Made by a program: the position numbers and the translations under genes. Shown here piece after piece: positions 3,402 through 63,800 of a stretch of DNA of 64,000 bases (the stretch's first letter is position 1; each line of letters begins with the position of its first letter). The notes beneath the pieces were generated by a model, which saw nothing but the letters and a program-made list of their open reading frames with translations, made no database searches and was not told the DNA's origin. The stretch covers positions 9,231,408 through 9,295,407 of the forward strand of contig OZ037771.1 in the NCBI GenBank assembly GCA_964035545.1, written 5' to 3'. This stretch comes from Bugula neritina (lineage: Eukaryota > Animalia > Bryozoa).

Positions 3402-3440
<39 letters not shown>

Positions 3441-3443
<3 letters not shown>

Positions 3444-4047: not shown

Positions 4048-4358
4048 TGTTATGATTTTCAGATTTAGGGTTGATATGCAATCCAGAGAGTCTATTTACT
4101 TGCTAGAGAAACTTCACCAGGATAAGTCGAGTGAATACGAGTATATTTTTACACACAAAAACACATTACAAAAACTATACAAATACTTCTAATAATTCTA
4201 CACATCTATGTCATTCAGCACTCTAACTTTGACTAACTAACAGCGGGAAAACTAACTACTGCTACTAACTATAAGTGTCGCTAATTGGCTGTCCATTGTT
4301 CCGGGTCAATTACGTGACCCTGTGTATTTCGCTGCTGGTAGCTCCACGAGCCACTACA
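4048..4358 (-). mobile_element. Solo LTR related to the Gypsy element at 50088-57534
   Basis: TG...CA ends; colinear similarity to LTR 50088-50393 (tgttatgattt...gctggtagctccacgagccac). Flanks are ATAT/ATAC. Confidence 0.88.
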
Positions 4359-7559: not shown

Positions 7560-24229
<16,670 letters not shown>

Positions 24230-27800: not shown

Positions 27801-30800
27801 TAATAATTTACAGTTGAGCTGCAAAAATATTTCTGTTCTTTGTTAGCGTATTTTCTCATCTTATAAACACAACTTACTTCTGAATCATAATCAAGGGACA
27901 TAACTCCACTGTTGGCTCCAGTCAGCATTCCTTTTTTCTGAGTTGTATCTATATAAAGAACATAAGTACAAACACTATGTCTATATATAGAACATAAGTA
28001 CATACACTATGGCTATATATAGAACATAAGTACATACACTATGTCTATATATAGAACATAAGTACAAACACTATGTCTATATATAGAATATAAGTACAAA
28101 CACTATGTCTATATATAGAATATAAGTACAAACACCATGTCTATATAAAGAACATAAGTACAAACACTATGTCTATATATAGAACATAAGTACATACACT
28201 ATGGCTATATATAGAACATAAGTACATACACTATGTCTATATATAGAACATAAGTACAAACACTATGTCTATATATAGAATATAAGTACAAACACTATGT
28301 CTATATATAGAATATAAGTACAAACACTATGTCTATATATAGAACATAAGTACATACACTATGTCTATATATAGAACATAAGTACAAACACTATGTCTAT
28401 ATATAGAATATAAGTACAAACACTATGGCTATATATAGAACATAAGTACAAACACTATGTCTATATATAGAACATAAGTAAAAACACTATGTCTATATAT
28501 AGAACATAAGTAAAAACACTATGTCTATATATAGAATATAAGTATAAACACTATAGCTATATATAGAACATAAGTACAAACACTATGGCTATATATAGAA
28601 TATAGATACAAACACCATGTCTATATATAGAACATAAGTACAAACACTATGTCTATATATAGGATATAAGTACAAACACTATGGCTATATATAGAACATA
28701 AGTACAAACACTATGTCTATATATAGAACATAAGTAAAAACGCTATGTCTATATATAGAACATAAGTAAAAACACTATGTCTATATATAGAATATAAGTA
28801 TAAACACTATAGCTATATATAGAACATAAGTACAAACACTATGGCTATATATAGAATATAGATACAAACACCATGTCTATATATAGAATATAAGTACATA
28901 CACTATGTCTATAATTATATAGAATATAAGTATAAACACCATGTCTATATATAGAACATAAGTACAAGCACTATGGCTATATATAGAACATAAGTACAAG
29001 CACTATAGCTATATATAGAATATAAGTATAAACACTATAGCTATATATAGAACATAAGTATTTTTATGTTGTGTTAATTTGCAGTTATTATATGTTTATG
29101 CTGTAGAGACTACACTCGGTTGAGGGCTAAAACTCTAACTTATATTTGTAAATCTTCATCTTATATATATACAGAATATGACATCATACAGTTGCCAAAC
29201 ACTATCTGATTCATGCAATAATAATAAACAACACCATTGCATGCAGCACACATTCAAAACATTACAAGTATAAACACTATGTCTATATATAGAACATAAG
29301 TACAAACACCATGTCTATATATAAAATGTAAGTATAAACACTATGTCTATATATAGAATATAATATAAGTAGCCTACAAACACCAATTTATATATCGCTG
29401 TTTGCAGAAAATATTATAAACAAATAAACAATTGGAAAAAACACTTAAGAAATATTAACTGGTGACCTTTCACTTTAAAACAGCTCTTCTCCATTCAGCT
29501 ATCTATTCAAAGTTATAGTGGTAGAGCTATATAGTAATCAGTTATATACTTCTATAGTCATATATAGCTATATATTCATGTAGTTATATAGTAATATAGC
29601 CATGTAGGTATATAGTGATATAGCCATGTAGGTATATAGTAATATAGCCATGTAGGTATATAGTAATATAGCCATGTAGGTATATAGTAATATAGCTATG
29701 TAAGTATATAGTAATATAGCCATGTAGGTATATACTGATATAGCCATGTAGGTATATAGTAATATAGTCATGTAGGTATATAGTAATATAGCCATGTAGG
29801 TATATAGTGATATAGCCATGTAGGTATATAGTAATATAGCCATGTAGGTATAAAGTATTATAGCCATGTAGTTATATAGTAATATAGCCATGTAGGTATA
29901 TAGTGATATAGCCATGTAGGTATATAGTAATATAGCCATGTAGATATATAGTCATGCAGTTTAGTAACTTACGACTTGCAGTCACTTCCCATATCTTGAC
30001 CTTTCTATCAACGCCAGCGGTTGCAAAGATCTTTCCGGATGGACTCCATTTGACGTCACTAATTTCACTATCGTGTGCTTCCTACAAATAGATAAGACAA
30101 ATCTAGACTTCACCTTGTTATCTGCAAGTACCACACGTAAATACAGAAGCACATGGAGCCATCATTGTTTACATAAGCAACACTAACAAGGAAACCTACA
30201 TTACTTACTTTGACAATGCCTGCCTACACACTAGGATTACATATACGTCTGTCTAGTATTTCAGATTATTTATGTGAAACCTGAATGTGACAAGGTTTAT
30301 CACTGCTGTACGATGTAGCTAACAGAAACTCCTGGACACATATGCAGTACTAACATAGAAGCTCACACAATCATACAAGTTTACATTATCTTATGTAGTA
30401 ACCACTAGCTGCACATGAGCATAAACACTAGCTGCACATGAGCATACGGACTCACAAATGAGTGAAGGACTTTAGTTGGTACTGTAGAAGTAGCATATCC
30501 TCCAAAACGCATTCTGCAACACAAAATATGAACAATTAAAATTCCATATCTAGTAAGTGCAGGACATATAACAAATCAAATGAAATGGAGATGCTGGTGT
30601 GTATCATACAGCTGGATAAGTTAATGAACTGTACATGAGTACCTCTGCCAGACTACTTGTCTCTGTGGGACATAGTAATACTGTGACAGTGTGGTATAGT
30701 AATACTGTGACAGTGTGACATAGTAATACTGTGACAGTGTGACATAGTAGTACTGTGACAGTGTGGTATAGTAATACTGTGACAGTGTGGTATAGTAATA

Positions 30801-33800
30801 CTGTGACAGTGTGGTATAGTAATACTGTGACAGTGTGGTATAGTAATACTGTGACAGTGTGATATAGTAGTACTGTGACAGTGTGGTATAGTAATACTGT
30901 GACAGTGTGGTATAGTAATACTGTGACAGTGTGGTATAGTAATACTGTAACAGTGTGGTATAGTAATACTGTGACAGTGTGGTATAGTAATACTGTGACA
31001 GTGTGGTATAGTAGTACTGTGACAGTGTGGTATAGTAATACTGTGACAGTGTGGTATAGTAATACTGTGACAGTGTGGTATAGTAATACTGTGACAGTGT
31101 GGTATAGTAATACTGTGACAGTGTGGTATAGCAATACTGTGACAGTGTGGTATAGTAATAATGTGACAGTGTATTATAGTAATACTGTGACAGTGTGATA
31201 TAGTAGTACTGTGACAGTGTGGTATAGTAATACTGTGACAGTGTGACATAGTAATACTGTGACAGTGTGGTATAGTAATACTGTGACAGTGTGATATAGT
31301 AGTACTATGACAGTGTGGTATAGTAATACTGTGACAGTGTGGTATAGTAGTACTGTGACAGTGTGGTATAGTAGTACTGTGACAGTGTGACATAGTAATA
31401 CTGTGACAGTGTGACATAGTAGTACTGTGACAGTGTGGTATAGTAATACTGTGACAGTGTGGTATAGTAATACTGTGACAGTGTAGTATAGTAATACTGT
31501 GACAGTGTGACATAGTAATACTGTGACAGTGTGGTATAGTAATACTGTAACAGTGTGGTATAGTAATACTGTGACAGTGTGGTATAGTAATACTGTGACA
31601 GTGTGATATAGTAGTACTGTGACAGTGTGGTATAGTAATACTGTGACAGTGTGGTATAGTAATACTGTGACAGTGTGGTATAGTAATACTGTGACAGTGT
31701 AGTATAGTAATACTGTGACAGTGTGGTATAGTAATACTGTGACAGTGTGGTATAGTAATACTGTGACAGTGTGGTATAGTAATACTGTGACAGTGTGGTA
31801 TAGTAATACTGTGACAGTGTGGTATAGTAATACTGTGACAGTGTGATATAGTAGTACTGTGACAGTGTGGTATAGTAGTACTGTGACAGTGTGGTATAGT
31901 AGTACTGTGACAGTGTGGTATAGTAGTACTGTGACAGTGTGGTATAGTAGTACTGTGACAGTGTGACATAGTAATACTGTGACAGTGTGACATAGTAGTA
32001 CTGTGACAGTGTGGTATAGTAATACTGTGACAGTGTGGTATAGTAATACTGTGACAGTGTAGTATAGTAATACTGTGACAGTGTGACATAGTAATACTGT
32101 GACAGTGTGGTATAGTAATACTGTAACAGTGTGGTATAGTAATACTGTGACAGTGTGGTATAGTAATACTGTGACAGTGTGATATAGTAGTACTGTGACA
32201 GTGTGGTATAGTAATACTGTGACAGTGTGGTATAGTAATACTGTGACAGTGTAGTATAGTAATACTGTGACAGTGTGGTATAGTAATACTGTGACAGTGT
32301 GGTATAGTAATACTGTGACAGTGTGGTATAGTAATACTGTGACAGTGTGGTATAGTAATACTGTGACAGTGTGGTATAGTAATAATGTGACAGTGTGGTA
32401 TAGTAATACTGTGACAGTGTGGTATAGTAGTACTATGACAGTGTGGTATAGTAATACTGTGACAGTGTGGTATAGTAGTACTGTGACAGTGTGGTATAGT
32501 AATACTGTGACAGTGTGGTATAGTAATAATGTGACAGTGTGGTATAGTGTGGTATTAGGGAGCAGCCGTGGTCTAGGGGTTAGAGTGTTAGCCTAGTATG
32601 CACGAAGCCATGGGTTCGAGCCCATACAAATGTCATTGGTGATGTTAGAAAGAGCAACCAGTCATAATTGCTCCTGTGCCCCACCTGAATAAGTCCTTAG
32701 CCTGATTTAACAAAAAAACCCTCTCATCAGAGGTTTTCTCACAGGGATGGCGACCATAAACTTGCGTGAGTAGTCTGGTATAGTAGTACTGTGACAGACT
32801 GTAAATAGTTTATAGACATACCCAATAGAAGGTTCTTCTACAACTATATTGTCTTTCATCGCTTGGTCAATCTTCTGTCGTATCTCAATTTGCTTCCTCC
32901 TCTGGAAGTCCTCCATTTCCCTATTCTGTGCGTCTGCATCTTGTTGAGTTCTCACCAACCACCTGGCAGTGCAGAACATGACTCACCAGTTTCACACAAA
33001 AGACACAAGCAGTGAAGTGGACATGTTAAGTTAAAGCAGGAACTTCGTATCGTTACCATCTTTTGTTTATCAACACTCTTGACATTATGTCACTTGATGT
33101 AAAAAATATTTTTGAAAATATTTTAGTGCACAGACCTAGTCACTTCTCTGTTGCTGAGAGTAAACAACTTGGTACTCATGCACCTCAACTGAAACAGCTC
33201 TTAGAAGGTGGAGCACTAATAACTACTACAGAGTAAAACTCAATACTAAGAACAACTGTGATAGCGACAGAAATTGCTCAACTTTTAGACAACTTGAGGC
33301 TACCAACACTGCTAGACATCTTTGTGCACTACAATGCACTGTGAATAGTAAACAAACATAATAAAATTTACCTGTTGATTAGTTCATTATACTGAGCTTC
33401 GACTGTCTTGTATTTTTCTTGTAAACACACAAACTCTAACTGCAATGCTTGCTGCTCATCTTTTAGCATCTGAAAATGTATACTAGAATGTATATTTATT
33501 TTACTCTAAAAGCAATAGGCTAATTACATGCATACATCACACTAGTCATTTTACTAAACTAACAAACAATGACTATGTTTACAACCTTTAACCCAACTGA
33601 ATAGCAGTGATAATCTGCTGATTTAAGTTCTGCACAAGAATTAGAAACTTTTCAGCCTCATCACATCACAACTACAGAAATGTTGCTTGTACAAGATAAG
33701 GACTCAAGTTAGGCTTTAACTGCCAAAGTTATAGGATATAAAGTATGTATTTAAATTAAGTTCTTTAATGCATTTGCTGTTCTCTAGCAAGCTAAACTTC

Positions 33801-43429: not shown

Positions 43430-46400
43430 TGTATATTCTGTATACCCTTGCAGTTTAGCAAATAAACACGGGAGAGGTCGACAACACACAGTGGTGCCTT
43501 TCTACAGAGCAGCTACTACCAACCAGTTCCCATCAGCTATAACAACTTCAGGTAACTTCAAACTGATAAAACCTTGGCTTCTAAGCTTGCTTTACAACTT
43601 TCATATATCTGCAGCAGTCGTGCTGGTTCCACATATAGGCGTGGATGATTGGCACTATACCAATAGTCTTATGAAACTGTTCACATCTGTATCTTTGTAT
43701 CTTCGGAAACTGCATACTTTTTGCGGGTTAGGAATAGCTCTTAATTATATGCGTGCTTTTCAAGTTATAAATTATTCATAATTTGATGAGTGTGGCTTGC
43801 TATATAAAATAACGCCTAGTTTTGTATTAAAAGTAATTATTTTTATAAAAATTGTCATGTAGGTAATGTAGTTTTAACTTGGTTTGGTTTTGGTTTTCAC
43901 ATTTTGTAAACTTGTATAGTTTATATTCAACAAAACTTCCATTTGTGACCATTAACATTAGCAGGCTTGAGAAGGATGATCAATCTTGTTGAATGTAGTC
44001 AGTTGCTAGGTGAACTTTTGAGTTTATCATAAATTTTCTAGCAATCTGTACTTTTAACAGGATAAAGTTTTGTGTTCATCATATGAGTTGTTAAATTAAA
44101 TTTTAGTTAAAATTTGATTAATTATAAATAAAATTCTATTCTTTTTGGACAGCACCAACACCTGCATGTTGGATTAAACCAGCTCCTAGATGCGACCCGA
44201 ACTCACCATACAGAACTATTGATGGTTCTTGTAACAACTTGAATAATCCTACTTGGGGTCAGTCAGTGAGGCCAATTGGACGTCGTTTGCCTCCCAAATA
44301 CAATCCAGGTATTCTATACCAGTAAATGCACAAAGCTGTGTGCACACATAATATTGAAGTGAAACCACAGTTTCTAGCAGCTGCAACAGTTGAAGCATCA
44401 CCAACTGTTAACTTGTGTTTAGGGAGTTTAACAGATATCAGAACCATTGGAGTGACAGGCAGACCTCTGCCAAGTGCCAGGGAGGTGTCTACTGGTGTAC
44501 TAGAACTTGCAACTAAGAGAGATTTGTCAACTACTTTGACAGGGATGCATATGACTTGGGGTCAATTCATTGATCATGACCTCACCCATGTACCACTAAC
44601 ACCACCAGTAAGTCACTCTTTAACAGTTGTAGTAAGACATCAACATACAGCTTCTCTGTTGATGATGGTGAATAAGAGCAACATTCATGCATAGTTATAA
44701 GATTAATTTTTCTATCTATACACACAAGAAGATGGTAGAGTCTTACTAATGTATAATCACTGATTTCTAACCTAAACTGCTACCAGATCTCATAGCAAGA
44801 TAAATGTGACTATAACAGCACAAACTTGGAGTACCAAATATGCAACATAAAACAAAATGTAATGTGATTGAAGTGTATACAAAACTATATTATGGTTATG
44901 CCAAGAATATCAGATCAATTGATAACACTTAGAACTTGGCAACAGTTCAATACTAGTAAATCGCAAGACATGTGAACTATTAATTTCTACAGTTATTTTT
45001 AGATAAAGTTCTGTTTGAGAACAAAGTTTTGGGAAAAAGCAAAGTTGTCAAGGAATTTAAGGACAATTAATTAGTATAAAAGCAGATTAGGGCAACATTA
45101 TTTTGTTCTCAACTGAATATTTTAGATGAAATGCTGTAATCAACCAGCTGGAAATCAACACGAAGATTGTATCCCCATAGGTGTGCCTCCAACTGATCAT
45201 TTCTATGGGCCAAGGGGAACAACGTGCTTAGAGCTGAGGCGATCTATGGCCATCAAACCGGGACAGTGTGGTATGTCCCATGATGCTATTTTATTAATGC
45301 TCATTCTAGCGAAATCTATGCTTCATCTAGTTAAATATTTCTTACTATTTTCCATAATACAAGTTCTGTAAACTATTTATTTATTCTTTATGTGTATTTT
45401 ATACAGGAAATACCTTTCGAGAGCAGCTCAATAACCTAACTTCCTACATAGATGCTGGTTTAGTTTACGGTAGCACAGATGAGAGAGCCAAGCAGCTAAG
45501 GTCGTTCTCTAGAGGTCAAATGGCAGATTCAGATGCACGGTATCACTTACCCATTGAGAAACCAGGAACTAAATGTGACATACCACCAATAAATCACCCA
45601 GACAAGAGATGCTTTGCTGCAGGTGAACATTTTTAAGTTCTGTAACTTGATTGGTAACTTTGGCAATGTGTTTATACCTATGATGTTTATACTGTTTAGA
45701 GCATAGCTGACTGAGTTGAACAAATGGGCACTATATAAAACATGTTTAAGGTTTTATGATAACACTTTAATTCAATTGTAAACTAAATCTTTATCCAATA
45801 TACTTTGCTACTAATATAAACAATATTTTAAAGCGTTTAATTTCTAGAACTCTCTAAAACATTATGAAATTGTAGTTCTAAAGTTCTGATCAATTAGCTA
45901 GCATGTATCACATACATATGCTTGTTACTTCATCAATTATTCTATTTTATTCTTCTTAGGAGACACTAAAGCTCAATTAATGATGACAACCTGTTACAAA
46001 TGTGTAGACATAATAAAATGCTACTCTGATGGATTTCTTGTCTAACCTGTTGTTTCTGGCAAGGTGATCGAAGATCGAATGAATGGGGAGGACTCACTGC
46101 AGTGCATGTTATCTTCATCAGAGAACACAATAGAATAGCAGAAGTATTTTACAGAGACTTGAAGTCTTCCAACCCAGGAACATCAGAAAGAGACTTGGAC
46201 GAGAAGATTTATCAGGAAGTCAGAAGAATTATTGCAGCTCAAATTCAGGTTACCAGATTGTCAAATCTAAAGTGTGGAAGTCTTAGCTGCTAGGCCAGTT
46301 AATGAGTTAGTGGGCAAAAATGTAAATTAAAAATAGTTAATGTAGATTAGCTGTGACTATGTTGCTTTTCATAATTGAGATAATGAACAAACTTGATAAT

Positions 46401-49400
46401 TTTCTGTAAATTACAAAATGGTTATGCAATTAAATATCAACTTATTGCTTATTTACTTATTTCCATACAATATAAGAATAATATAGGAAATTTGTTTGTT
46501 ATAGCTTCTAACTTTCAATAAACAAGCAAGGCAATTGTGTTTTGTATAGCTAATTTTTTTGCAAATAATTTATTTTTACTAGTTGAAAAAGCCACTGCAA
46601 AACAAAAATAATGTGGAAAGAGAACTTAATTTTATAAAATTTGCATACTTCAGGTTATAAATTATGGTGAGTACTTACCTAATGTACTTGGCGACTACCA
46701 AATGAGGAAATATGGTTTGTACCTGGAGCATGGCTTTCCTCGGGGAGAGAAAAATATATACGATGCAAACTTAGATGCCACAGCTTCAAATGTGTTTGGT
46801 ACAGCAGCGTTTCGATTTGGTCACAGTGAGGTTGCATTTGGCACTCAGCCAAAAAACAGGTAACATTTTTGCACTCCAATTGGTGTATAGCAACAGCTTA
46901 TCTCTCAATTCACATCAAAGCAAAATTCTCAACAAGGAAAACAGACTTTCAGACAGTTTGACTCACTTATACATAAAGTAAATTATAATGTTGAGTGACA
47001 GAGATGCCAGCTCCTTCTGGATTAGGTTTTAAAACTTCGGTAAGGTTTGTTTTCGACACGTTATGATTGGTAAATTAAAGTAATACTGACCATATTTCTG
47101 TAGTCTGTAGTTTCCTTTCTTATAATTAATAAGATAGCATTGGAAGACCACCTAATATTTATAATTGAAGATGTCATAACAAACCATTATGGAAACTTCT
47201 AGTTACAGCATGTATTTCAATTAAACAAATATAAGTTTTGGCACAAGATTACTGCGAATAATGATTTTAAAAAAGCTTTACTATAGGTTTGATTTTTCTT
47301 TTAGTCACTATCACAATACTTCGAGCTTCGTACCATTTCTGGAGCTTTTAAATCAACCAACAACGTACAGACAGATACAGAATGACAATGCAATCCGAGG
47401 AATGATTGTTGAGCCATGTCTAAAGACATCTAAGTTTTCAGCTGGTAAATTTTTTTAAATTTGTAAGCTTGTACTGATTAACTAGTTACAGATAGGCAAA
47501 AAGAAATAAAGTCAACTAGATTTTTATATCTTGTTATGCCCTAAATGATGTATATAATAGAAAAAGTATAACAATGAATTTAATGGATCTGAACTTGTGA
47601 CTTGTAGTTAGCTAAAATGTAATAAAATACTTCAAGTATATACCTTTCAAATAGTTTGACTGCTATAACAATTAATTAACATTTAGATTAAAGTGTGTAC
47701 GAATTTATATGAAGTGCCAATTATTATAGGAAATTTATTGGTAAAAAAACTAATCTCCACAGTTATATACAGTTTCACTCAAATCGAAAACAAACTTGAA
47801 GTAGGTCAGTGTAAAAAATATTGATGGAAATTATGTATATGACAAAATGCTGACAAAACTAATTAATTAGATTGCACAGTTGCATATACTTCAATGTGAA
47901 ATATAATTTAGATCAACTTTAGGTATGTTATAGTTGTGACACATGTATAAATTATGGATATACAAAAATATAAGAGAAAATTGAATTATTTTGTTGCTAT
48001 TGTTACAAGGGAATGTTTCCTTGCAGTAAAAGAAAGTATTTCAGGAAGTAACAATCACATCATCATAATTAGAATTTCCTTTGTAACTGTTTCAAAGAAT
48101 GCATAAATCCTACTATTTATGATGAATAATTATTGCATAATGTGACTAAACTGACCAAAAATTAATATACACATCGGTGTCTGGGTTAGACATAATATAA
48201 TATATTTAATAGAGAACTAATTACAATACTTTAATTTTTCTTGCTATATTAGTACGTGTTGTGTTTAATTTGATGCAGAGGTAAAGAATCATCTGTTTGA
48301 GAGAACTTTTAATGGAAGTGGATTAGACTTGCCTGCTATAAGTACCCAGAGAAGCAGAGAGCATGGTCAGTAAATATTCTACATAATTACTTATATATTC
48401 TTATCTCAAAGAGTCTTAGATAACTGTAATATGTTAAGTCATACATCTTAAAATAATGAATATAAAACATGCTAATGAAAACTACCTTGCAAACTTGCTG
48501 ATTATTTTAAATGCAAAAAAAAGCCTGCATTTATGCCGTAAACAGTAAAATATTTCTTATAGTGGTGAAATGTTTTAAAAATTGTATTTAAAAAGTTGTT
48601 TAAATGTTGTGAAGGTTTACCTACTTACAACTCATGGAGGAAGTTCTGTGGACTAAATGCAGTTACTTTTGACTACATGCCAGACCACACTGATCAACAG
48701 AGACGGAGATTTGCTCAAACCTACGATCACCCAGACGATATTGACCTTTTCCCAGGAGCCATCACTGAAAGGTGGGATTTTTCAATTTGCACACAATTGA
48801 TTCACTGTAAAACTTACATGAAGTTGATGTCTGAGTGTGTTTATAATAGCACTAACATTCTACTGTAACAGATTGGTGTCGCCAGATGCTCATGTAGGAC
48901 CGACATTTGCATGTCTCATTGGACAGGAGTTTCAGAGGCTGAAGAAAGGAGACAGATTCTGGTTTGAGAATCAAGGAACTTACCCTAACCACTTTACCAC
49001 CAATCAAATTATACAGCTCTCTAAGGTCTGTTTGGTTATACACTACCATGTGTTAAATTATTATCTTCATCATCAAATATTAGTATAGATATTAAATAAT
49101 GAAACATCAGCATATAATATGAGTTTTAGACATTTATAAAACATGATGCTATTGGCTCTTCTATAAAAAATCATTTATTTAAAATAATATTATAACAATG
49201 AAATTAATTAATTGATAGTGGAAATAAATAAAGATTTTAAACTGTTTAACGAATTTGTTGAAAACTCTTGTTTATTGCTGCATGTTTTACACTATGCAAT
49301 AGTAAACTAGCAATGTAATGTATACCAACTATGAATACTTGCTGATGTAAAATAAGAACTGCATGTAGCTCAGTATTGATTTATTATCGATTATATGAAA

Positions 49401-49570: not shown

Positions 49571-50660
49571 TTTCACATAATGAAGTGCAATACACTGTCT
49601 ATAAACTGGATACTTATTCTGCTTGTACCTGATCATTTCTTAACTTACAAGTTACAAGTATTCAGCAAATTCCCTAACTAGTTTGATGTACTGGAAGTCC
49701 CTTAGTTGATTGATGATCCTTTAACCGCACTTCGGTTTAACAAAATTTATGACCCTGCAAACTCCTTCTCACTGCCATGTGACTAAGTAAGCGTGCATCT
49801 TTTATTCTCACTTCTGGCTGTTGCACTGTTGACTAATTGTTTTGTTTTGTGCTTACAATAGCAAAATAATGTTCACCTATATAATCTGTTATACTTGTTG
49901 GTTATATTTTTAATATTTGGGAGACTGACTGATTGATTTCAATAAGAATGACTAAAATATAGTTTCTTTTGAGTCACTATATCTTTAACTAATTAAATGC
50001 AAGTCACAAAATTTGTGAGATGACTGAAGTATAAAAAGATTGTAAGAAAGTTTCAAATAAAGGCTTTTTGATAACATAGTGCAATATTGTTATGATTTCC
50101 AGAATTAGGGTCGATGTGCAACCAAGAGAGTCTATTTATTACTAGAGAAACTTCACCGTGATAAGTCGAGTAGATATCGTTATATTTTAATACAAGAATA
50201 CATAATAAAAACTAACATACAACAGTTAATAATACGCACGTCTATTTAATTTACAGCACTATCCTCAACTGAGCTAGTAGCGCGAAGCTGCTACTATTAC
50301 TCATAAACAGCCTAGCTAATTGGCTAGTACATTGCTCCGGGTCAATACGCAACCCTGCGTATTGTGTTGCTGGTAGCTCCACGAGCCACCACACTGCCCC
50401 CTCCAGCAGAAAGCCCTCTTTCTGATAAAAAAATACTTCACATAAAAACATATACTTTGTTGTGGAGAGAGAGAACAGTACAAAAGTATATACAAAAAAA
50501 ACAACCGATAAAATATACAGGTATAGATATATAAAACGTGCACAATATGTAATGTGTAAGAGAAAGTCCTATTTACATGTAGAGTACGTGCCACCATAAC
50601 GGTAGGGAATGCCACAGAGAGGTAGGGGAAGAGTAGTATGGAGTTGGAGATAGACTCATG

Positions 50661-51734
50661 TTAACTGCGGGCCGCCCGCTTCATGCGTTTAATAGACTCC
50701 TGTAGATATTTGAGTTCACTGGATGCAGCCTGCACCCGCGGGGCCAGTCTGTACACTTCTTGCTCTAGGTCGTGTGCCTTAGCTTCTACTTCGCGTAGGT
50801 TGCGGGCCAGGGGGGACGAACGAGAGGAAGTCTGCTGTCTGTGCCTTTTCCGTTCGGAGGATGGAAGTGGAGGAGGGAGTGTATACGCCTTCGTGTCTAC
50901 CCTCTGTAGTACGACACGGGGGAATGTATGCGGGTGGCGTAGAGGACTGTGAGGTGGAGAGTTAGTTGATTGTATAGGTTTATCTGCGGCTCCAGAGATG
51001 ATGGGTCGCGGGGAGGGAAAGCCTTGCTCCAGGCGAGACAGCCGAGCTGGGTCGGTGATGAGGGGTTTGATGGCGTTGAGAAATGCGGGATATGATGATT
51101 CGTCTACTTCATAGACGTGTCCTTGAAAACACTGCATAGTGCGTTGGTGACGCAGTAGGTAATCACGATTGTAACTATATGCTCCGCAGGGGCAGAACGT
51201 GGTGATGTAATGCTGCGGCAAGTGTACTTTCAGCCTGCGGTGGGTTGTAAATCGCTGCTGGCAGAGGTTGCATTCGCGGTTACCATCACCTCCTTTATGA
51301 GTCTTAATCTCTCTCTCTGTGGCAGGGGTAATCCAGTTAGAGGTTGCTTCCAACTGGGGTGGCAGTTGCCTGGTTGTAGAAGTCGTTGGGGCCGGCTCTG
51401 GGTCCCACGCCATCTCTAGAGAAGGCATGCCCGGAGAGACGGGCGCGAGTGTGTCTACAAAAGTAGAATTATTGTTAGATCGCGGTGGATCTTTACAACA
51501 TAATTCTAGTGACTGTCGACTGTTACTAGCCTGAGAGTCACAGCTTTTGGAATGCACTCGAGGAACCGATGAATCATGTGTGGACTGACCAAGAACAGTG
51601 TCTAGCTCCAGGTCTAACAGACCGTCGGCCATTACAGTGTCCTCATCGTCATTCACATGAAACGTGGTTCCCAGTAATTCTGATTCAATCTGCTGAATTA
51701 GTTCAGAATTTACTGGCATCGAGCTCGTTTCCAT
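50661..51734 (-). CDS. Accessory 3' ORF of element B: C2H2-type zinc finger region plus C-terminal coiled coil
   Basis: 357 aa intact; CNLCQQRFTTHRRLKVHLPQH followed by CPC...H...C; heptad-rich C-terminus; homologous remnants in element C. Confidence 0.8.
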   Translation of the reverse strand: METSSMPVNSELIQQIESELLGTTFHVNDDEDTVMADGLLDLELDTVLGQSTHDSSVPRVHSKSCDSQASNSRQSLELCCKDPPRSNNNSTFVDTLAPVSPGMPSLEMAWDPEPAPTTSTTRQLPPQLEATSNWITPATEREIKTHKGGDGNRECNLCQQRFTTHRRLKVHLPQHYITTFCPCGAYSYNRDYLLRHQRTMQCFQGHVYEVDESSYPAFLNAIKPLITDPARLSRLEQGFPSPRPIISGAADKPIQSTNSPPHSPLRHPHTFPRVVLQRVDTKAYTLPPPLPSSERKRHRQQTSSRSSPLARNLREVEAKAHDLEQEVYRLAPRVQAASSELKYLQESIKRMKRAARS

Positions 51735-51751
51735 GAATAGGAATACAAGAC

Positions 51752-54700
51752 TTATACTGGCTTACCTGTGAACTCGGTATTAATGTCCATACTCAACGTT
51801 CTTGGTAAGGTTGGAGCTGGTTGTGAGATACGTCTGCCTTTGGCGATGTCAGCGTAAGAAAAGGCTGAGCATCGTTTCTGAGGCACGAGGTCGGAACTAT
51901 TTGCTTTACGCGCATTAATTCCTCCCACTATTCCGCCCTCGCAAAAGTTGATATTTGCGTGGGGTTCACAACTCCAACATTTTATCGTACGGTTTTCCCC
52001 TAGACTTTCATGCGTGCCGCTTCTAATGCAGTCACATATGAAGTCTTCCAAATATGGTGGGGGTTTCCTCGTACGCTGTCCCCGTTCTAGGGGGGGTGAC
52101 ACGCTCGCCGGTTCGTTAGTAGGGGCCTCTAATGGCGTCTCTACTTCACCGTGAGCGGTCACCTCTTCTTGTTCTCCGGATGGAGCCCCTCCCTCCGTGG
52201 GGGTTTGCACTTCCGGAACCGGCTCGGTTTCTGGAAGTGATGGAATTAGACTTGGCGGCGGCGGACACGCTTCCGTTGGCAAAAGCTGCCGCTCCTCTCT
52301 CACCAAGTTTTCTTCCCGCGGTATGACCACTTCGTATTCAGGTCCATGCCGCCGTCGCCCACGCGTTGTTGTCTGCCTCCTGGGCTCCAACAACGGGGGG
52401 GCTTCTCCCGCTGCGTCGGGGCTAGCCCAATACGGTTTCAAGCGAGACTCATTCTGGATAAACACCTGTCCTAAGCGCTCAATCTTGTACGTATGATTGG
52501 GCATAGCCTCGACGATCACGTAGGGTCCTACGAACTTAGGCTTCAGTTTATCAGCCTGTCCGCGACGCCTACGGTAATTGACCATCCACACCTTATCTCC
52601 CGTTTGGTAGAGAGGTGGTTCATCGGAATCTTCGTGCCGCACCTTCCACTGCTGTTCGCGCAGTATATCGTGCGCGGCCTTCATCCGTTCCACTAGTTCA
52701 CTGGCATACTCGTGAACCGAGTTGTCTTGCTCTGGAACGTGGTAGGTGATATGGTCAGGGACACGAGTCTCTCTCTTGAGCATCAAGAGGTTTGGGGTCT
52801 CACCAGTACTGGTGTGTGGGGTGCTACGGTATGCCCGCATGACTTGCGGCAACACCGTATCCCATTCCTCTTGGCCTCGTCCAAGGAGGAGACTCCGGAG
52901 CGCATCACCTAGCATCCGGTTGTTGCGCTCCACCACTCCATTACCTTGAGGGTGGTAGGGGGTGGTCCGACTCTGATTTACTCCCCAGAGGTGGCAAAGG
53001 TCGCTCATCAGTTGAGACTGGAATTGAGCGCCTTGATCAGAGTGTATCTGTTCTGGAAGACCAAAATAACAGAATACATGTTGGTCTAGTGCCCTGGCCA
53101 CTGTTGGGGCTGACGCATCTGGGATAGCCAGAGCATCCGCCCACCTAGTAAAGTGGTCGGTTAGTACTAAGATCCAGTTATTGCCTCTGGGGGTCAGGGG
53201 CATGGGTCCGACCAGGTCTACAGCGACTACTTGCCAGGGCCTACCAGCATATAGCCTCCGCCGTCCTGCTTCACCAGGGGGCGGCTATGCTTACTGGCCT
53301 GGCAGATCTCACACTGTTTGACTCTGAGTCGGACGTCACGCTCCATTTGTGGCCAATACCACCGGAGTCGTAATTTGGATATCACTCTCTTGACCCCTGC
53401 GTGGGCCTGTTTGTGAGTATCCCAAATCAACTCACGGCGGATGGCCGTGGGGCAGACTACCCTCTTCCTCTCCGGGTGTCTGCCGCTGGCGGCTAGAGAG
53501 ATGGTTAGTAACCCATCCTGCCCGATCCGCAGCGAGTCCCAACGCTGACAGTATAGCCGGAACTCGGCACATCCCTGTCTTATGCGTTCCTCGCTGGGTC
53601 GTCGCCCTTCCCTTTTGGCCCGATATATGTCTGCCACGACTCCAGGCAGCTCTTCTTGGAGCTTCTTCAGCTCTCGAACATTACCGGCCAGTACAGGGTT
53701 GGCGCGGAGGTTTTGTACACCCTCCGGGGACTCATCAACTCCTTGCCTGAGTTGACCCTGGTCCCAGTCAAACGGTGCTCCGTGGTGAGCCAGCGTCTCC
53801 AACTCACATCGCGGGGGACCTCCATCCCTCCTCTCGATGTTGAGACACTGTTTGCAACCTCCCTCAGGTCGGCGACTCAAACCATCCGCATTGCTGTGTC
53901 TCTTGCCCGGTCGATGTTCGATCCGGTATGAGAACTCAGCTAGTATTTCGAGCCACCGGGCGACCTGACTAGAGGGCTCTGCTCTCTTGCACAACCAGAT
54001 CAGCGAGGCATGATCCGTACGCAGCCGGAACTTCCTGCCATATAGGTATGGTCTGAAGTGCTTCACTGACTTGATTACTGCCAGCAGCTCCTTGCGGGTA
54101 GTGCAGTAATTTCGTTCAGCGGGTGAGAGAGACTTGCTGTAGTAGGCTACTACTACCTCTCGGCCTTCCTGCACTTGTGACAGCACAGCGCCAACATTTT
54201 GGTCACTGGCGTCTGTGTCGAGGATGTACTCCAGAGTGGGGTCTGGGTAGGCCAAGATGGGCGCCGTTAGTAGGCAGCCCTTGAGGCGGTCGAACGCTCC
54301 TTGTTCGACTGGGGTCCACTGCCACGTCACTCCCTTTGCGGTGAGCCGATTTAACGGCTGTGCTATGCCCGCAAAGTCTGGTATGTATTGCCTGTAATAC
54401 CCTACCAGCCCCAAGAAAGCCCGGAGTCCGGTCAAGTCTTGGGGGGTGACCCAGTCTTCTATTGCCCGCACCTTCTCGGGATCCGTTGCCACGCCGTTTC
54501 GACCGACAACGTGCCCCAGGTACTTAACCTCCGGCTGCAATAGAGCGCACTTGGAAGGTTTGAGCTTAAGACCGGCACCTCGGAGTCTCTCAAAGACCTC
54601 CTGCAAACGACTGACATGCGTCTCGAAGTCTGGGGAGATCACGATGACATCATCGAGGTAGACCAGCAGTGTCTTCCAATGGAGCCCGCTAAGGACTTGC

Positions 54701-56380
54701 TCCATCAGCCTCTGGAAGGTGGCCGCGGCGGAGGTTAACCCGAAGGGTAGCACCTTCCACTTCCACAACCCGTCCCGTGTGATAAACGCCGTTTTCTCCT
54801 GGGCGTCGGGACTCAGTGGGACTTGCCAATAGCCGCTTAGCAAGTCTAACGTACTGAAGTACTTGCTGCCGGCTAGGGCGTCCAGTGACTCGTCAATACG
54901 AGGTAGAGGGTAGGCGTCCTGTATGGTTACGTTGTTGAGTTTACGGTAATCCACACAGAACCGCCAACTGCCGTCTTTCTTCCGGACCAGTACGACCGGT
55001 GAGCTCCACGCACTATGGGCGGGCTCTATGAGGCCGCGGTCCAGAAGATCCCGTACTTGTCGGCTAACCTCCTTCTCTTTCTCCGGCCCCAGCCTGCGTG
55101 TGGGCTGCCGGACAGGGACTGTCCCTGCAGTCAGCGGTATTTCGTGCCTGACAACTCCAGTCAGCCCCACGTCATGATCTCCGCTACTGAACACATCACC
55201 GTAGTCGCGTAGCAACTTCGCCATAGCTTGGCGTTCCTTGTTGCTCGCGCAGCCGCCACAGGCTGTTTCATATAACTCCCGGAGATGTGCTGGGACTGCC
55301 CCTCGTCCCTGAATAGGGTGTCGAGGGGGTGTCTCCGTCGCGTCACCCAGCGACGGGCCCACGTCCTCTTCCTGGATGGAGTGGAACCGGCCCAGCATTG
55401 ACCCAGCTGGGAGCTCAATGGGCTCGGTAAAGGGGTTGACACACTGCACTAAGACCTCCCCTCGCTCAGTTAGTCGGTTTAAACTACTGGCGAGTTGGAT
55501 CCTTTCGTGCGCGCCTTCAACGACCCCGAGCCTGGCTATCCGGTTGCTGTTCACTCGGCAGTGGATAGTAGCTCTGGAGCGTCCGGGCACGGTGCAGTTT
55601 CGAACTACCTGGACACCGCCCACCAGAGGACGCCCAAACTTATCCACACAGGCGAGTTCTCGCCCGCCCATCAGCACCACCGACTTGCTAAAGTCTATTC
55701 GGCACTGGTGTTGCTTCAAGAAGGGCATGCCGAGGATGGCATCTTCCTCCAGTTGGCTTATGACAAAGGTCTCCTGTACAGCCTGGTCTCGGACACGCCC
55801 GGGGAGCTCGATAATACCGTAAAAGGGAATACATGACCCGTCTGCCAGGGTGCCATGTTCCCCCGTATATGGTCGTACTCTATCCCTGTCCCGGCGGGGC
55901 AGTGCTTCAAAGACTCTACGACTGAGAAGGTTGGTAGTACAACCGGAGTCGAGCAGGAAAGTGACGGCGTTGCCGGCCACCTTTCCGGGTAGGAAATAGC
56001 TCTCTCCATGTGGTTGTACTTTCACCCCCCCCCCCCGCATGTGCTGTCCTAGATGGGTAGGACGGCGGGGGTTTCACCCGTGGTTTGCGGGGTTTCCGGC
56101 GGCGAGGTTGATGCCGGCTGGGTTTGGGGCTCTCCACTGGGCCTTCTGGCTCCATTTCAGTGGCGGGCTCCTCTTCCCGAGGTAACCGGTGGAACCGGTT
56201 GGCGAGTGGCAGGGAGAAGGTACTCGGCCGTTGTGCGGGCCTACTAGTCCTGCGTGGTACCTGCCACTCGGGGGGAGTGTTCCGTCGTGTCCGTACGGAC
56301 AGACGGCGGCGTGTCCCACCATACTCCTTTAGTTGCGGCCCGCGGGGAGGGAGAGCGTCCGCGGGCCGTGACAGTTTAAC
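51752..56380 (-). CDS. pol: Pol polyprotein of element B, with frameshifts near 56030 and 53279
   Basis: LLDSG, YLDD, TDAS, HHCC, DDE and KFVGPY across ORFs 53227-56040 and 51752-53203; both breaks fall in homopolymer runs. Confidence 0.92.
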
Positions 56381-57195
56381 GCCCCCTGGTATTGGGGTCG
56401 TCCTTGCTGTCCATGGTCTCGACCAGCACTACTCCAGTCTGGCCCCACAGGTGTTGGGGGCAACCGCAGGGCCTGACTGGGGACAGCGCCGGCCAGAATT
56501 GTTGCCAGCTGTCCCAGCATCTCTACCATGCGGTCCACTTCGGCTTCCAGCGGGGGGGCTTCGGGGCTTGTTGTAGCCCTGGCAGCACTGACTCCAACTA
56601 CTGGTGGGTTCCGTTGTGCTCGATGCATTTGGGTAGCCAACAGGTAAGCTTCTCCAGCTTTCAGGGCATCTTCTATCCTGGTTATCCCTTTTGCTCGGAG
56701 CTGATGGTGTAGGCCCGGGTCGTTGAGTGACTGGACAAAGCCGTCGTATGTGTGACGCTCTTGGTGTTGTGCGGGCAGATCGCCGTACGCAATCTGTGCT
56801 AGCTTCTTCACCGTCGCGGCATGTTCTTGCAGCGAGGTTCGCGGGGCGCGGCACAGCCTCTGTAGCTTAGTCCTAGCGTCTACTGCGGAGATACCAAAAC
56901 GGGCCCGCAGCGCAGCCAGTATTCCGTTTACGTCCGTTCCCACTCCGTACGGCTTGGCTTGCTCCGTCAACGCCCTCCGCAATTGGATGAGGGCCACTCT
57001 ATGCGGCCATTGAGCAATCTCCATTACTTCTCTAAATTCTTGTATAAACTGTTCGACATCTTCTGACCCAGTAAAGGTGGGAGCTTTCAAGCAATATCTA
57101 TACGCTTCTTCTCCCTCACGATTCACAGGATTACCATCATTTCTACGCTCACCTTCTACTGGGGGTGGTTGCATTCTAGCATTTTCAGTCTCCAT
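56329..57195 (-). CDS. gag: Gag of element B (no zinc knuckle)
   Basis: 288 aa after the PBS; aligns with gag A (P-F-G--DVEQFI-EF, ALRARFG). Confidence 0.9.
   Translation of the reverse strand: METENARMQPPPVEGERRNDGNPVNREGEEAYRYCLKAPTFTGSEDVEQFIQEFREVMEIAQWPHRVALIQLRRALTEQAKPYGVGTDVNGILAALRARFGISAVDARTKLQRLCRAPRTSLQEHAATVKKLAQIAYGDLPAQHQERHTYDGFVQSLNDPGLHHQLRAKGITRIEDALKAGEAYLLATQMHRAQRNPPVVGVSAARATTSPEAPPLEAEVDRMVEMLGQLATILAGAVPSQALRLPPTPVGPDWSSAGRDHGQQGRPQYQGALNCHGPRTLSLPAGRN
56336..56380 (-). promoter_or_regulatory. Programmed -1 frameshift signal of element B
   Basis: G TTA AAC in gag phase, 5-nt spacer, 10-bp stem cggcccgcgg/ccgcgggccg; the -1 frame is open and homologous to the pol A N-terminus. 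Confidence 0.78.
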
Positions 57196-57591
57196 CTTTG
57201 ATGTGCACTATCCCACTGCTGCCACCACTGTTATGATTTCCAGAATTAGGGTCGATGTGCAACCAAGAGAGTCTATTTATTACTAGAAAAACTTCACCGT
57301 GATAAGTCGAGTAGATATCGTTATATTTTAATACAAGAATACATAATAAAAACTAACATACAACAGTTAATAATACGCACGTCTATTTAATTTACAGCAC
57401 TATCCTCAACTGAGCTAGTAGCACGAAGCTGCTACTATTACTCATAAACAGCCTAGCTAATTGGCTAGTACATTGTTCCGGGTCAATACGCAACCTTGCG
57501 TATTGTGTTGCTGGTAGCTCCACGAGCCACCACAATATTATATATATAGTTTGAAAAGACTAGAATTTGTTTGCCTATAATGAAGCTTGAG

Positions 57592-60876: not shown

Positions 60877-63800
60877 TGTTATGTTTTCTGTTATTGTCGG
60901 TGTATAATCAGATTAACACATGACCAGTAGTTATGCAATCGACCTCACAGATGGGTTGCAGGAGAATAAGATAATATATTTTTACGATAGATACAACAAT
61001 AAAACTTCACATTCACTTCAGACAGTTTTACAACTCAGTGTCAAGTGTTCACTGTTTTTCTGCCCAGTAACAACTGATGCGGGAGAAGACTGTTCCTCGT
61101 GATCTAATCAAGATCTTCATTCTGATTGGAGCTCAGACTGATCATATCACTAGCCACGAGGTCTCCCGCATGGTACGAGGAATATAGAAACGCCGCGATC
61201 ACCTTTTATCACAATGAAAGACGGAAGCGGCGAGCTCCCTCCTTCATCCATATATATATATATACGAATCTGTGAGCCATCACACGGTCCCCCAACAGAA
61301 AGCCCACTTTCTGATAACAATCATACAAAAAATGGCGAACATTACATGGGTACACACGTCTAGATAACAGTGATATTAAAGGAGAAAAAGGAACAAAGTA
61401 TTAGGTATATATATATAATGAGAGAAGTGCCACACAGATACATCAGTAAGTTACACAAGAGGGTAGGAGCTGTCATTTACATGATAACAATGCCGTGCAT
61501 CGAGTATGCCCAGGAAGGACGTGACTCAGAGATATTTCCTCCTCAAGGGGGGAACTATTGTTGCTCAGCCTGAGAACGATATTTGGCTTGTCGAGTACAG
61601 AGTCTCCTTTTTATCCGACCCACCGAATCTTTTAACTGGTACAGGCCGGTGGTTGTAGTTAACAGGCTGGGGGCCAGTTGGGTGAAATCCGCCTGTAACC
61701 GCAGGAGCCGCTCTTCTACAGTGGCCAAGTGGGTTGGTCTCTCAGGTTTTGGGGCAGAAGCCCCTGTGGGTGACTCTGCCTCCTCCTTTATAACGTTCTG
61801 AGTTGGTTCGTCCACCTTGGACACAGCCTCGGGCTAATCGGCGACTATGGGAGAGCGGTGTCGGTGGGAGAGCGGTGTCGGGCATACTTCAGCACAGTCT
61901 GAAATCCTTGGGTTAGGACGGCTAGCATTAAAGCCTTTCTAACTAGAGGGCGTATAACTGTCAGGAACTCTGGATAAGTATCAGCATCCACTGTGTGGTG
62001 GACTCCGGGGTGACATCCGCTAGCCATGTGTGCGGTAACGGGGTATGGATAGGATAGCAGGTAATGGGCATTCACGTTCATCTTTAGTGCACGAATAGAC
62101 GAACAATCCTCCTGGCACACTAGACATCTGGTACTTCCGCGCGGCCCCCACACGGCTTCTATCTTTCTTTCCGTAGCCGGCAACACCCACCGCCAACGAC
62201 GGCAGAGTGGCGCCGGTAGCCCTCCGTCTTCCTCCATGAGCGTGGAAGGATGTGGGTGAGGTGCGTGGTCTTGTGACCCTTTGGTAGCAGGTCGAGTGTT
62301 ACCTGAAAGAGTTCAACAGTGTTAGTTACATACACTGAAGTGCCGCCAGCGTTAGACAGCCTGACAGCCCCCCTCTCAGTTAGACACTCGCGATATCTAT
62401 GCCAGTGAAAAATTGGCCGAAAACACGAACTGCAACCGAGAATCACTAAGATCTCCTAGTCAGTCCGTGTTCTCACCACTTACTTTCACTGACGGTATAT
62501 CCATCCTAGTTAACTAAGTTGAGTTAGAGCTGACTGATGCAATTTAGTTTCCATACCAGAAGAATATAGTTAACTCACCCCTCGATCCGGTATAGCCAGA
62601 CATACTGAATTTTGGAATGATTACTATGAGTGACTACTAGCACGTCTGCTCTTAACTGCATCAGCATAAGAAAAGACCGGGCAATGTGGTTGTGGCGTGT
62701 GGTTGGGGCACTTCACAACTGGCGGATTAATTTCGCTCGTGGTTCCGCACATGTAAAAGTCAGTTTTTACGTGGAGCCCACAACTCCCACAATTAACTGA
62801 TGGTTCTTCCGTATGGCACCCGCTGGACTTACATACTTGCCGCTTTGAACACAGTCACATATGGAGTCTTGTAAGTACGCTGGAGGTTGTCTGGTACGCT
62901 GTCCTCGTTCCAGAGGAGGCGGTGCACTCACCGATGGACTATCAAGTTCCACTGGTGGGACTTCTGGCTCATTAGTGACTATTTCTTCTCTGATTTCACC
63001 GGACGCAGCCCCTCTCTCCGTGGGGGTTTCCACTTCTGGGCCCAGCTCAGGCTCCGGAAGTGACGGTGTCAGACCTGGCGCTGGAGGCGGCGGACCCACT
63101 TCTGCTGGGGGAAGCGGTCATTCGTTTCTTGCCAGGTCCTTTGCCCCCGGCACGACCACCTCATATTTGGGTCCACGCCGCTGTCGCCCGCGCGTTGTTG
63201 TGTGCCTCTGGGGCTCCAACAATGGGGGGCTTCTCCCACCGCGTCGGGGCTGGCCCAATACGGCTTCAAGCTAGCCTCATTCTGGACAAACACCTGTCCT
63301 GAGCGCTCAATCTTGTAGGTATGGTTGGGCCTCGACCACTACGTAGGGTCCCACGAACTTGGGCTGTCACTTAGCCGCCTGTCCGCGACGCATACGATGA
63401 TTGACCATCCACACCCAGTCTCCTACCTGGTAGAGGGGTGGTTCTTCTGAGTCTTCACGCCGCACCTGCCACTGCTTCTCTCGCAGCATTTCGTGTGCGG
63501 CCTTCATCCATTCCACCAGTTGGCTGGCGTACTCGTGGACCAAGTTGTCCTGCTCAGGAACATGGTGGGTAAGGTAATCGGGCACCCAAGTCTCTCGACC
63601 GAGCATTAGGAAGTTGGGAGTCTCACCAGTACTGGTGTGTGAGTATTACGATAGGTACACATGACTTGCGGCAGTATCGTATCCCTTTCCTCCTGACTCC
63701 GGCGGAGGAGCAGACTCCGGAGGGCATCACCCAGCATCCGGTTGTTGCGCTCCACCACTCCGTTACCCTGTGGATGGTAAGGGGTGGTCCTGGTTTGATT

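What the first reader, a model, noticed from the sequence alone, without database searches (positions are those of the whole stretch)
51680..51790. Conserved small intron at the pol / accessory-ORF junction in all three Gypsy elements
Seen: in B (minus), agtATG + 25-nt exon (MDINTEFT, 51790-51766, in integrase frame) is followed by GTAAGC; splicing to tcAG at 51680 (86 nt) joins in frame to the zinc-finger ORF (..FT-E-LLGTTF) and removes the pol stop. In C, agtATG + 25-nt exon (62603-62579) is followed by GTGAGT, with a candidate acceptor 90 nt away (62489). In A, an AT-rich 68-nt GTGAGT...ttattcAG segment (21774-21841) precedes gccATGG. Inference: the accessory gene is spliced, and in B splicing could also produce an integrase-zinc finger fusion.
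Basis: partly seen in the sequence, partly recalled or inferred. Interest (0 to 1): 0.72.

Follow-up and report, generated by a model that had tools for sequence, protein, structure and literature searches.

The report
Optional intron in retrotransposon zinc-finger gene
Three related jumping genes here carry an extra zinc-finger gene that likely has one optional intron of about 300 bases, not the ~90-base one first proposed, and one of the three lacks the matching stretch exactly, as a copy made from spliced RNA would; no RNA covering the junction was found.

Summary
The quoted letters are real, but the introns as drawn are mostly wrong. The window holds three Ty3/Gypsy elements with a third ORF (C2H2-like zinc finger plus coiled coil) after integrase. 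The donor after the 25-nt mini-exon (B 51765, C 62578) is probably genuine. The better acceptor is distal: B 51455 (311 nt) and C 62303 (276 nt). Both have CTAAC, pyrimidines and YAG, are phase 1 and open the frame; 51 of 52 relatives fit B's site. A's ATG (21857) is the mini-exon's homologue. A and four relatives lack exactly 93 codons, from the donor-equivalent codon to the only YAG-compatible variable column pair (1 of 66), so A is likely an intron-less copy. The intron stays an open, partly conserved frame in many relatives, so it is likely optional. The integrase fusion is not conserved. No RNA covers the junction, and the count of column-scan hits alone does not beat a neutral null. The scan had no look-alike on record.

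The parts
50088..57534 (-). Element B: full-length Ty3/Gypsy retrotransposon; LTRs 57534-57229 and 50393-50088 (98.7% identical), ATAT target-site duplication, gag, pol (PR-RT-RH-IN, split by a frameshift near 53230-53284), ORF3
51766..51790 (-). B mini-exon 1 (ATG + 22 nt, MDINTEFT + G), in the integrase frame; unspliced, this frame stops at 51752
51455..51765 (-). B likely optional intron, 311 nt, phase 1: donor GTAAGC at 51765, branch-point-like CTAAC at 51478-51474, pyrimidine tract, TAG ending at 51455; 57% AT
   Evidence: inferred, no RNA
51732..51734 (-). Second ATG (MET...) inside the intron, in frame with ORF3; would start the long, intron-retaining form in B-like elements
51713..51715 (-). 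Possible proximal acceptor (CAG; 53-nt intron, in frame); unresolved
   Evidence: for; one search shows P 0.13-0.21 after allowing for all positions
51680..51682 (-).
   Evidence: (13 of 49 compatible at the next residue)
50661..51454 (-). B ORF3 exon 2: linker, folded C2H2-like zinc-finger domain, C-terminal coiled coil
62579..62603 (-). C mini-exon 1 (ATG + 22 nt), downstream of the end of pol in this family
62303..62578 (-). C likely intron, 276 nt, phase 1: GTGAGT ... CTAAC (62325-62321) ... CTCTTTCAG; stops in all three frames
61845..62302 (-). C ORF3 exon 2, open for 152 codons, zinc-finger homologue; C is a decayed element that runs off the window end
15769..23107 (+). Element A: full-length Ty3/Gypsy retrotransposon; LTRs 15769-16309 and 22567-23107 (99.8% identical), ATAT target-site duplication, pol split near 19878-19923
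21857..21887 (+). A homologue of mini-exon 1 ([10 protein letters not shown] + G), joined directly at 21887^21888 to the exon-2 homologue: likely intron-less junction (93 codons absent against P0215)
21774..21841 (+).
22160..22167 (+). Second deletion junction in A that removes the zinc finger, at a short repeat rather than at splice signals

Best explanation
The three elements are Ty3/Gypsy retrotransposons with a third, zinc-finger-like ORF after integrase, and that ORF likely contains one optional spliceosomal intron of about 280-310 bases that begins right after a short first exon. Shown: the ORF, mini-exon ATG, GT donor, CTAAC/pyrimidine/YAG site and frames in B and C, and the 93-codon gap in A. 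Inferred step 1: splicing 51765 to 51455 in B (62578 to 62303 in C) would give a short protein (272 aa in B) of first-exon peptide, zinc finger and coiled coil. Inferred step 2: unspliced RNA would give a longer protein with about 85 extra, mostly disordered, acidic residues, started at the inner ATG (51734) in B-like elements or read straight through from the first ATG where the frame is continuous. Inferred step 3: a spliced full-length RNA (or a template switch onto the spliced message) was once reverse-transcribed and founded the A subfamily, which lacks the intron. Inferred step 4, weakest: the protein is a nuclear, oligomeric nucleic-acid-binding regulator of the element's own RNA, working like CERV of Cer1. 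The 5' end of the ORF3 message (internal promoter in the pol tail, or a further upstream splice) is unknown.
For: Only 1 of 39 AGs after the B donor and 1 of 28 after the C donor combine YAG, 10 or more pyrimidines of 14, and CTRAY 14-42 nt upstream; both are phase 1 and open the ORF (272 and 160 aa). C's is the only such site in its 2,711 nt. In 52 B-clade proteins the residue before the B site varies (L29, V13, S9, I1) yet 51 of 52 pairs stay YA|G-compatible; neutral simulation gave a hit at this site in 1-4 of 150 and 6-14 of 300 runs. SNNNS, which spells CTAAC, is the 3rd most conserved of 242 five-residue windows (10 changes against 32 simulated), in a stretch predicted disordered (pLDDT under 50). 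A, P0209, P0210, P0211 and P0220 each align to P0215 with one 93-residue gap from the donor-equivalent G to L|E (5 of 5; best single breakpoint in 4 of 5, second by one point in A). A blind scan of 7 long A-clade proteins finds 1 YA|G-compatible pair among 66 variable columns, exactly the gap's end. C has 7, 4 and 7 stops in the three frames of the intron's last 77 codons and 0 in 152 codons after it (P = 0.012 for the most open frame), and differs from relative P0174 by a frame change 10 nt before the acceptor. Introns are 56-57% AT against 43-45% in exon 2. Donor-compatible Gly in 9 of 12 sequences that cover the site.
Against: No RNA evidence: the one RNA run laid 0 contigs on 51630-51850 and shows no joint among those displayed (15 of 97 joints shown). 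The number of column-scan hits is ordinary: 2 observed against a neutral mean of 0.8-1.4; only their position counts. The acceptor thresholds were set after I had seen the sites, and B holds 8 such sites in 6,829 nt. Three of 12 sequences have Asp at the donor codon, which would abolish the GT; the three long A-clade forms have Gly-Ile, implying a weak GTAT donor. The 93-codon gap aligns cleanly only against P0215; alignments to P0217 and P0139 place it variously. It is probably one ancestral event, and other deletions in this family (P0030, P0102, A's second one) ignore splice signals. MAFFT puts C's acceptor about 24 nt upstream of B's, and the A-clade acceptor lies about 11 codons nearer the shared PYK motif than B's (read), so strict homology of the acceptors rests on the motif. 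Residues 8-45 inside the intron are more conserved than the zinc-finger average (ratio 0.85 against 1.13), which a plain intron would not show. All comparison with relatives is at protein level; their DNA could not be fetched.
Confidence: 0.62

Rival explanations
1. ORF3 is not spliced. It is translated from the inner ATG (or the first ATG where the frame is open) on a subgenomic RNA; the splice-like motifs are chance or protein motifs, and A's gap is an ordinary deletion.
For: ORF open without splicing in B; M at the inner start in 44 of 45 rows; residues 8-45 conserved; ten relatives read through the donor region in frame, three with Asp there; other deletions exist; Tor3b/4b env is made unspliced from an internal promoter (PMC4402516, passages).
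Against: Needs both ends of A's 93-codon gap to fall on the donor codon and on the 1-of-66 YAG-compatible pair by chance; does not explain stops before but not after 62303 in C, the kept AGTATG and GTRAG around a diverged mini-exon, or the conserved SNNNS. Substitutions in residues 9-85 are no more conservative than neutral (-0.40 against -0.42; a weak test).
Confidence: 0.2
2. The distal acceptor is real but is fed from a donor at the start of gag (B 57152, GAAG|GTGAGC, phase 1), giving an env-style subgenomic message with a gag leader, as in Tor3a or cerv; the local donor is secondary.
For: A phase-1 GGTGAG lies 14 codons into B gag and matches the phase of 51455; Tor3a donors map close to the start of gag (PMC4402516); cerv shares exons with gag (PMC10309623).
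Against: A has no GGTRAG in gag (its two are at 18643 and 21123); A's gap starts at the local donor codon; conservation of the gag donor was not tested.
Confidence: 0.1
3. A small intron exists, but it is 53 nt (51765-51713; C 62578-62534, 45 nt), used instead of or beside the long one.
For: Columns 7/8 are YA|G-compatible in 48 of 49 rows, with 7 second-position and 0 first-position changes at column 8; B and C align at this CAG; it restores the frame from the first ATG in B (358 aa).
Against: The site was picked after seeing the alignment; such a pair arises somewhere in 13-21% of neutral simulations; no branch point or pyrimidine tract; in C it leads into stops; long A-clade forms do not fit it.
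Confidence: 0.06
4. One reading: 86-, 90- and 68-nt introns in B, C and A, giving an integrase-zinc-finger fusion.
For: GT and AG are present; 51680 is in frame and has CTAAT 22 nt upstream; A's donor codons (REL) recur in 3 of 3 relatives that cover them.
Against: 13 of 49 relatives compatible at 51680; C splice hits a stop; the three are not homologous; A's CAG is not matched in relatives (ILNT); pol ends upstream in C, P0047 and A.
Confidence: 0.02

Closest known systems
CERV of Cer1 (C. elegans LTR retrotransposon; PMC10309623, passages seen)
   Same: Non-envelope ORF downstream of pol, completed by splicing; cysteine-rich putative zinc finger; helical oligomerisation element; element RNA keeps host splice signals.
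   Different: cerv has 5 exons and shares exons 1-3 with gag; its finger is C4-type; no homology outside nematodes is reported. Here the first exon is a local 25-nt piece at the end of pol, the finger is C2H2-like, and the intron is an open frame. No sequence comparison with CERV was made.
env/ORF3 expression in Tor elements of Oikopleura (PMC4402516, passages seen)
   Same: Two known routes to a third-ORF message: splicing from near the start of gag, or an internal promoter in or after pol.
   Different: Tor ORF3 is a membrane glycoprotein; internal-promoter messages showed no splicing. Here a local first exon and an intron inside the ORF are inferred.
Non-envelope ORF3s of bdelloid LTR elements (PMC5408684, passages) and additional ORFs of plant elements (PMC7264820, passages)
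   Same: Captured third ORF after pol; said to be typically expressed from spliced messages.
   Different: Those are env, GDSL esterase, DEDDy nuclease, coiled-coil or TM proteins; 'zinc' and 'intron' occur 0 times in either main text.
Introns of Ogre and EVADE; engineered intron loss from Ty (review PMC12786077, passages)
   Same: Functional introns inside LTR elements, alternative splicing, and intron-less copies as the mark of an RNA intermediate.
   Different: Plant or engineered cases used for subgenomic RNA; here the intron lies inside an accessory ORF and the loss looks natural. The Ogre paper (PMC2596294) was not held; I saw only its title.
Exitrons (protein-coding introns; recalled, from no call)
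   Same: A stretch with splice signals that is also an open frame; 279 nt, a multiple of three, in 3 of 3 long A-clade forms.
   Different: B's intron is 311 nt, so retention there needs the inner ATG; splicing is not shown.

Membership tests
Ty3/Gypsy LTR retrotransposon (A, B) | pol order protease-RT-RNase H-integrase | tested here: met
   Pfam order in A and B; best solved relatives are Ty3 Gag-Pol and RT, E 2e-102
Ty3/Gypsy LTR retrotransposon (A, B) | TG...CA LTR pair, PBS, PPT, short target-site duplication | tested here: met
   LTRs of 541 and 306 nt, ATAT duplications, shared PBS TGGTGGCAGCAGTGGGAT; its reading as tRNA-Leu is recalled
Named Gypsy clade (Mag, A/B/C-clade, MolGy/PolGy) | Placement in an RT/RNase H tree with clade references | not testable with these tools
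   No reference sequences were available from any call
U2-type spliceosomal intron (B 51765-51455, C 62578-62303) | GT donor, branch point, pyrimidine tract, YAG acceptor | tested here: met
   consensus definitions are recalled, thresholds set after seeing the sites
U2-type spliceosomal intron (B 51765-51455, C 62578-62303) | Signals conserved among relatives | tested here: inconclusive
   Acceptor 51 of 52 and SNNNS conserved; donor 9 of 12; protein level only
U2-type spliceosomal intron (B 51765-51455, C 62578-62303) | Removed from RNA (junction reads) | tested here: inconclusive
   The RNA run has no contig over the donor
U2-type spliceosomal intron (B 51765-51455, C 62578-62303) | Precise loss in retrocopies | tested here: inconclusive
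   93-codon gap at codon resolution in 5 of 5 against P0215; no DNA of an intron-bearing A-clade copy
env-like ORF3 | Envelope/fusion domain family match, membrane protein | tested here: not met
   No env family in Pfam; model is a disordered N-part, small folded domain and one long helix; no dedicated TM predictor was run
C2H2 zinc-finger protein | C-x2-C...H-x3-H motif with beta-beta-alpha fold | tested here: inconclusive
   Pfam zf-C2H2 E 0.057, below cut-off; top Foldseek rows are C2H2 domains but E 0.39 or worse; Atlas first hit 0.90 with zf-C2H2 (homologue P0006)
CERV-like RNA export factor | Nuclear protein required for genomic RNA export | not testable with these tools
   Analogy only

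The most novel reading that the evidence does not exclude
A widespread, undescribed group of animal Gypsy elements uses a protein-coding optional intron (exitron) inside a zinc-finger accessory gene as a switch: retention adds an acidic disordered arm, splicing removes it, so one gene would yield an activator-like and a repressor-like or export form that feeds back on the element's own RNA. Lineages have since fixed one state: A by precise intron loss through reverse transcription, C by letting the intron's frame decay.
Probability: 0.25. Interest if true: 0.75.

Novelty: new variant of a known kind. Interest (0 to 1): 0.52.

Why it matters
Retrotransposons must keep their genomic RNA unspliced, so an intron that survives inside an accessory gene implies regulated splicing. 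If right, this family shows three fates of one intron (optional, obligatory, precisely lost) within one genome window, and adds a zinc-finger accessory protein family (286 clusters at E up to 0.001; none of the 20 clusters looked up carries a name) to the few known regulators such as CERV. It gives exact junctions that one RNA-seq library could confirm. Spliced third ORFs and intron loss through retrotransposition are both known in principle, which limits the novelty.

Tried and rejected
Whole genome not held. RNA: one RNA run found (share 0.10); 21 contigs on B, none on 51630-51850; absence proves nothing. The second run (kind not on record, many copies) showed no joint in 51630-51850 and 13 variant rows, none at the donor or the tested AGs, but that stretch excludes 51455 and power is low; three of eight listed pieces end at 51765-51766, which graph forks explain as well, so not used. 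DNA of relatives: metagenome scan gave one weak, probably unrelated locus; viral and prokaryote collections none. Repeat finder was swamped by a 24-nt tandem array. No B-type protein with exon 1 joined to exon 2 among 228 stored proteins by a narrow pattern search. The column scan's hit count is not above a neutral null; the 53-nt acceptor failed the all-positions test. BLOSUM test of coding constraint was neutral-like for three of four regions. Fold searches: no match at E up to 0.001 in PDB or BFVD; VIA hits are generic coiled coils, Z up to 5.7; the zinc-finger core was not folded alone. P0102's pol-to-exon-2 join was checked as a second spliced copy and rejected, as it lacks about six exon-2 codons. 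Eight paper searches listed no report of this family or intron; PMC13524379, PMC8220671 and PMC8556966 gave no relevant passages by term search; 10.1101/2025.03.14.642691 (passages) concerns a membrane sORF2, a different protein. Repbase, GyDB, subscription papers and supplements were not searched and may hold these elements.
Full report
Setting. The window is AT-rich eukaryotic DNA with three GC-rich islands. A (15769-23107, +) and B (57534-50088, -) are full-length LTR elements with near-identical LTRs, ATAT target-site duplications and the same primer-binding site; C is a decayed 3' part that runs off the window. Pol has the Ty3/Gypsy order and Ty3 is its closest solved relative. An invertebrate animal host is my inference; no call names it, and no genome is held. 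After integrase each element has a third ORF. In B it has a weak C2H2 signal, a confidently modelled core at about residues 135-250, a long C-terminal helix, and a disordered N-part. The family is large: 46 close relatives and 286 clusters by profile. None of the 20 clusters looked up carries a name.

Check of the observation. The letters and coordinates are right, and AGTATG-N22-GTRAG occurs only in B and C (2 in 128 kb), though these two are homologous. The acceptors fail. Of 49 unique N-terminal rows (from 55 of 208 stored proteins plus B), only 13 have a G-initial residue after the 51680 position; most have Gln. The C splice to 62489 stops after 17 codons. B's ORF is open through the proposed intron, with an inner ATG at 51734. 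A's segment lies upstream of ATG 21857, and that ATG, not the segment, is the counterpart of the mini-exon ([10 protein letters not shown] against MGITLPETQS of P0215).

The better intron. Scanning all AGs after the donors (39 in B, 28 in C), one in each combines YAG, a pyrimidine tract and CTAAC 23-24 nt upstream: 51455 and 62303. Both are phase 1 and open the zinc-finger frame. I set these thresholds after seeing the sites, and B has 8 such sites in 6.8 kb, C 1 in 2.7 kb, A 0 in 6.3 kb. Relatives were available only as proteins, so I asked which adjacent residues could keep YA|G. In 53 B-clade rows (chosen by 40% identity over 100 residues, starting within the first 60), 2 of 103 variable columns qualify: positions 7/8 (51713) and 93/94 (51455; 51 of 52 rows). 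A neutral simulation on the same tree shows that two hits are ordinary (mean 0.8-1.4), but a hit at 93 came in only 1-4 of 150 and 6-14 of 300 runs. The 7/8 pair was chosen after the fact and arises somewhere in 13-21% of runs, so I leave it unresolved. The peptide SNNNS, which spells the CTAAC, ranks 3rd of 242 windows in conservation, behind only the cysteine core, although it lies in a disordered stretch. A protein motif could also explain that. C has stops in all three frames before 62303 and none in 152 codons after, and its relative P0174 shows the same T/S-N...[LVS]|[DG] spacing but another frame 10 nt upstream. MAFFT, however, offsets the two acceptors by about 24 nt.

An intron-less subfamily. 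A, P0209, P0210, P0211 and P0220 each align to P0215 with one 93-residue gap that starts at the Gly homologous to the B/C donor and ends at Leu|Glu. P0215, P0217 and P0139 all have 93 codons between those residues, though automatic alignment to the latter two is unstable. Independently, the scan of 7 long A-clade proteins gives one YA|G pair among 66 variable columns, at the end of that gap. In A the junction reads CAG|AA. This is what reverse transcription of spliced RNA leaves behind (known for engineered Ty; PMC12786077, passages). It is probably one event, resolved only to the codon, and three other deletions in the family ignore splice signals.

Why optional. The intron is an open frame in many relatives, ten of which read through the donor region, and residues 8-45 are more conserved than the zinc-finger average, while residues 46-84 are not. 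A test of substitution type could not tell it from neutral. Three of 12 sequences have Asp where the donor needs Gly, and the long A-clade forms imply a weak donor. The simplest reading is two products, long (retained) and short (spliced), with C fixed on spliced and A on lost. Open frames are over-represented because only called proteins were seen.

Fusion. Exon 1 is in the pol frame in B, and pol-tail-like sequence runs in frame into ORF3 in P0119, P0165, P0209 and P0220. Pol stops upstream in C, P0047 and A, and P0101 is off frame. A fusion is possible in some lineages but is not the conserved purpose.

RNA. One RNA run held a tenth of the words. It laid 21 contigs on B but none over the donor; only 15 of 97 joints were shown. 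Splicing is therefore not demonstrated.

Known kin and novelty. It would work like cerv of Cer1, a spliced non-envelope ORF after pol with a cysteine finger that exports genomic RNA (PMC10309623, passages), and its message could arise by either Tor route (PMC4402516, passages). It is not shown to belong to either. Eight searches listed no description of this family; repeat databases were not searched. The scan's own records had no sequence look-alike and one note on an intron-bearing antisense gene in another LTR element, a different arrangement that I did not test. Verdict: observation partly confirmed, interpretation partly supported, new variant of a known kind, confidence 0.62, interest 0.52.

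Noticed in passing
window 15765-15768, 23108-23111, 57535-57538, 50084-50087: A and B, only about 70% identical, both sit in AT-rich DNA with the same ATAT target-site duplication, hinting at a family target preference.
   Followed up: partly
window 4036-4361: A 76% identical copy of B's LTR stands alone, probably a solo LTR of a relative.
   Followed up: no
window 17241-17247 and 17264-17266: A has a TTTAAAC slippery-like heptamer shortly before the gag stop, suggesting a -1 gag-pol frameshift (motif class recalled); B has GTTAAAC at the like place.
   Followed up: no
window 57152 (minus strand): Strong phase-1 donor-like GAAG|GTGAGC 14 codons into B gag; gag and the long ORF3 both begin MET.
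   Followed up: partly
window 16019-16101 and 22817-22899: A's LTR contains an inverted repeat of about 85 nt.
   Followed up: no
window 22160-22167: A has lost the zinc finger by a second deletion yet its LTRs are 99.8% identical, so a copy with gutted ORF3 and split pol seems to have moved recently, perhaps with help in trans.
   Followed up: partly
proteins P0176, P0223: Distant relatives carry the same zinc-finger domain at the end of an 1,145-1,208 aa protein that begins with a protease-like region: a natural polyprotein fusion or a deleted element.
   Followed up: no
window 30521-32600, 27946-29368, 25881-26425, 24992-25399: Minisatellite arrays (24-nt unit in the largest) that create several spurious ORFs.
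   Followed up: no
window 9214-10727 and 44135-45624; 23303-23755 and 48586-49027; 2299-2602 and 3150-3452: Dispersed repeats of 87-97% identity, the last pair inverted; probably non-autonomous transposons.
   Followed up: no
window 21774-21848: A's upstream GTGAGT (the only one on the sense strand of its 6.3 kb interior) matches REL in three relatives, and a TAG at 21848 would give a 75-nt phase-1 intron; a second, upstream intron in the A clade is possible.
   Followed up: partly
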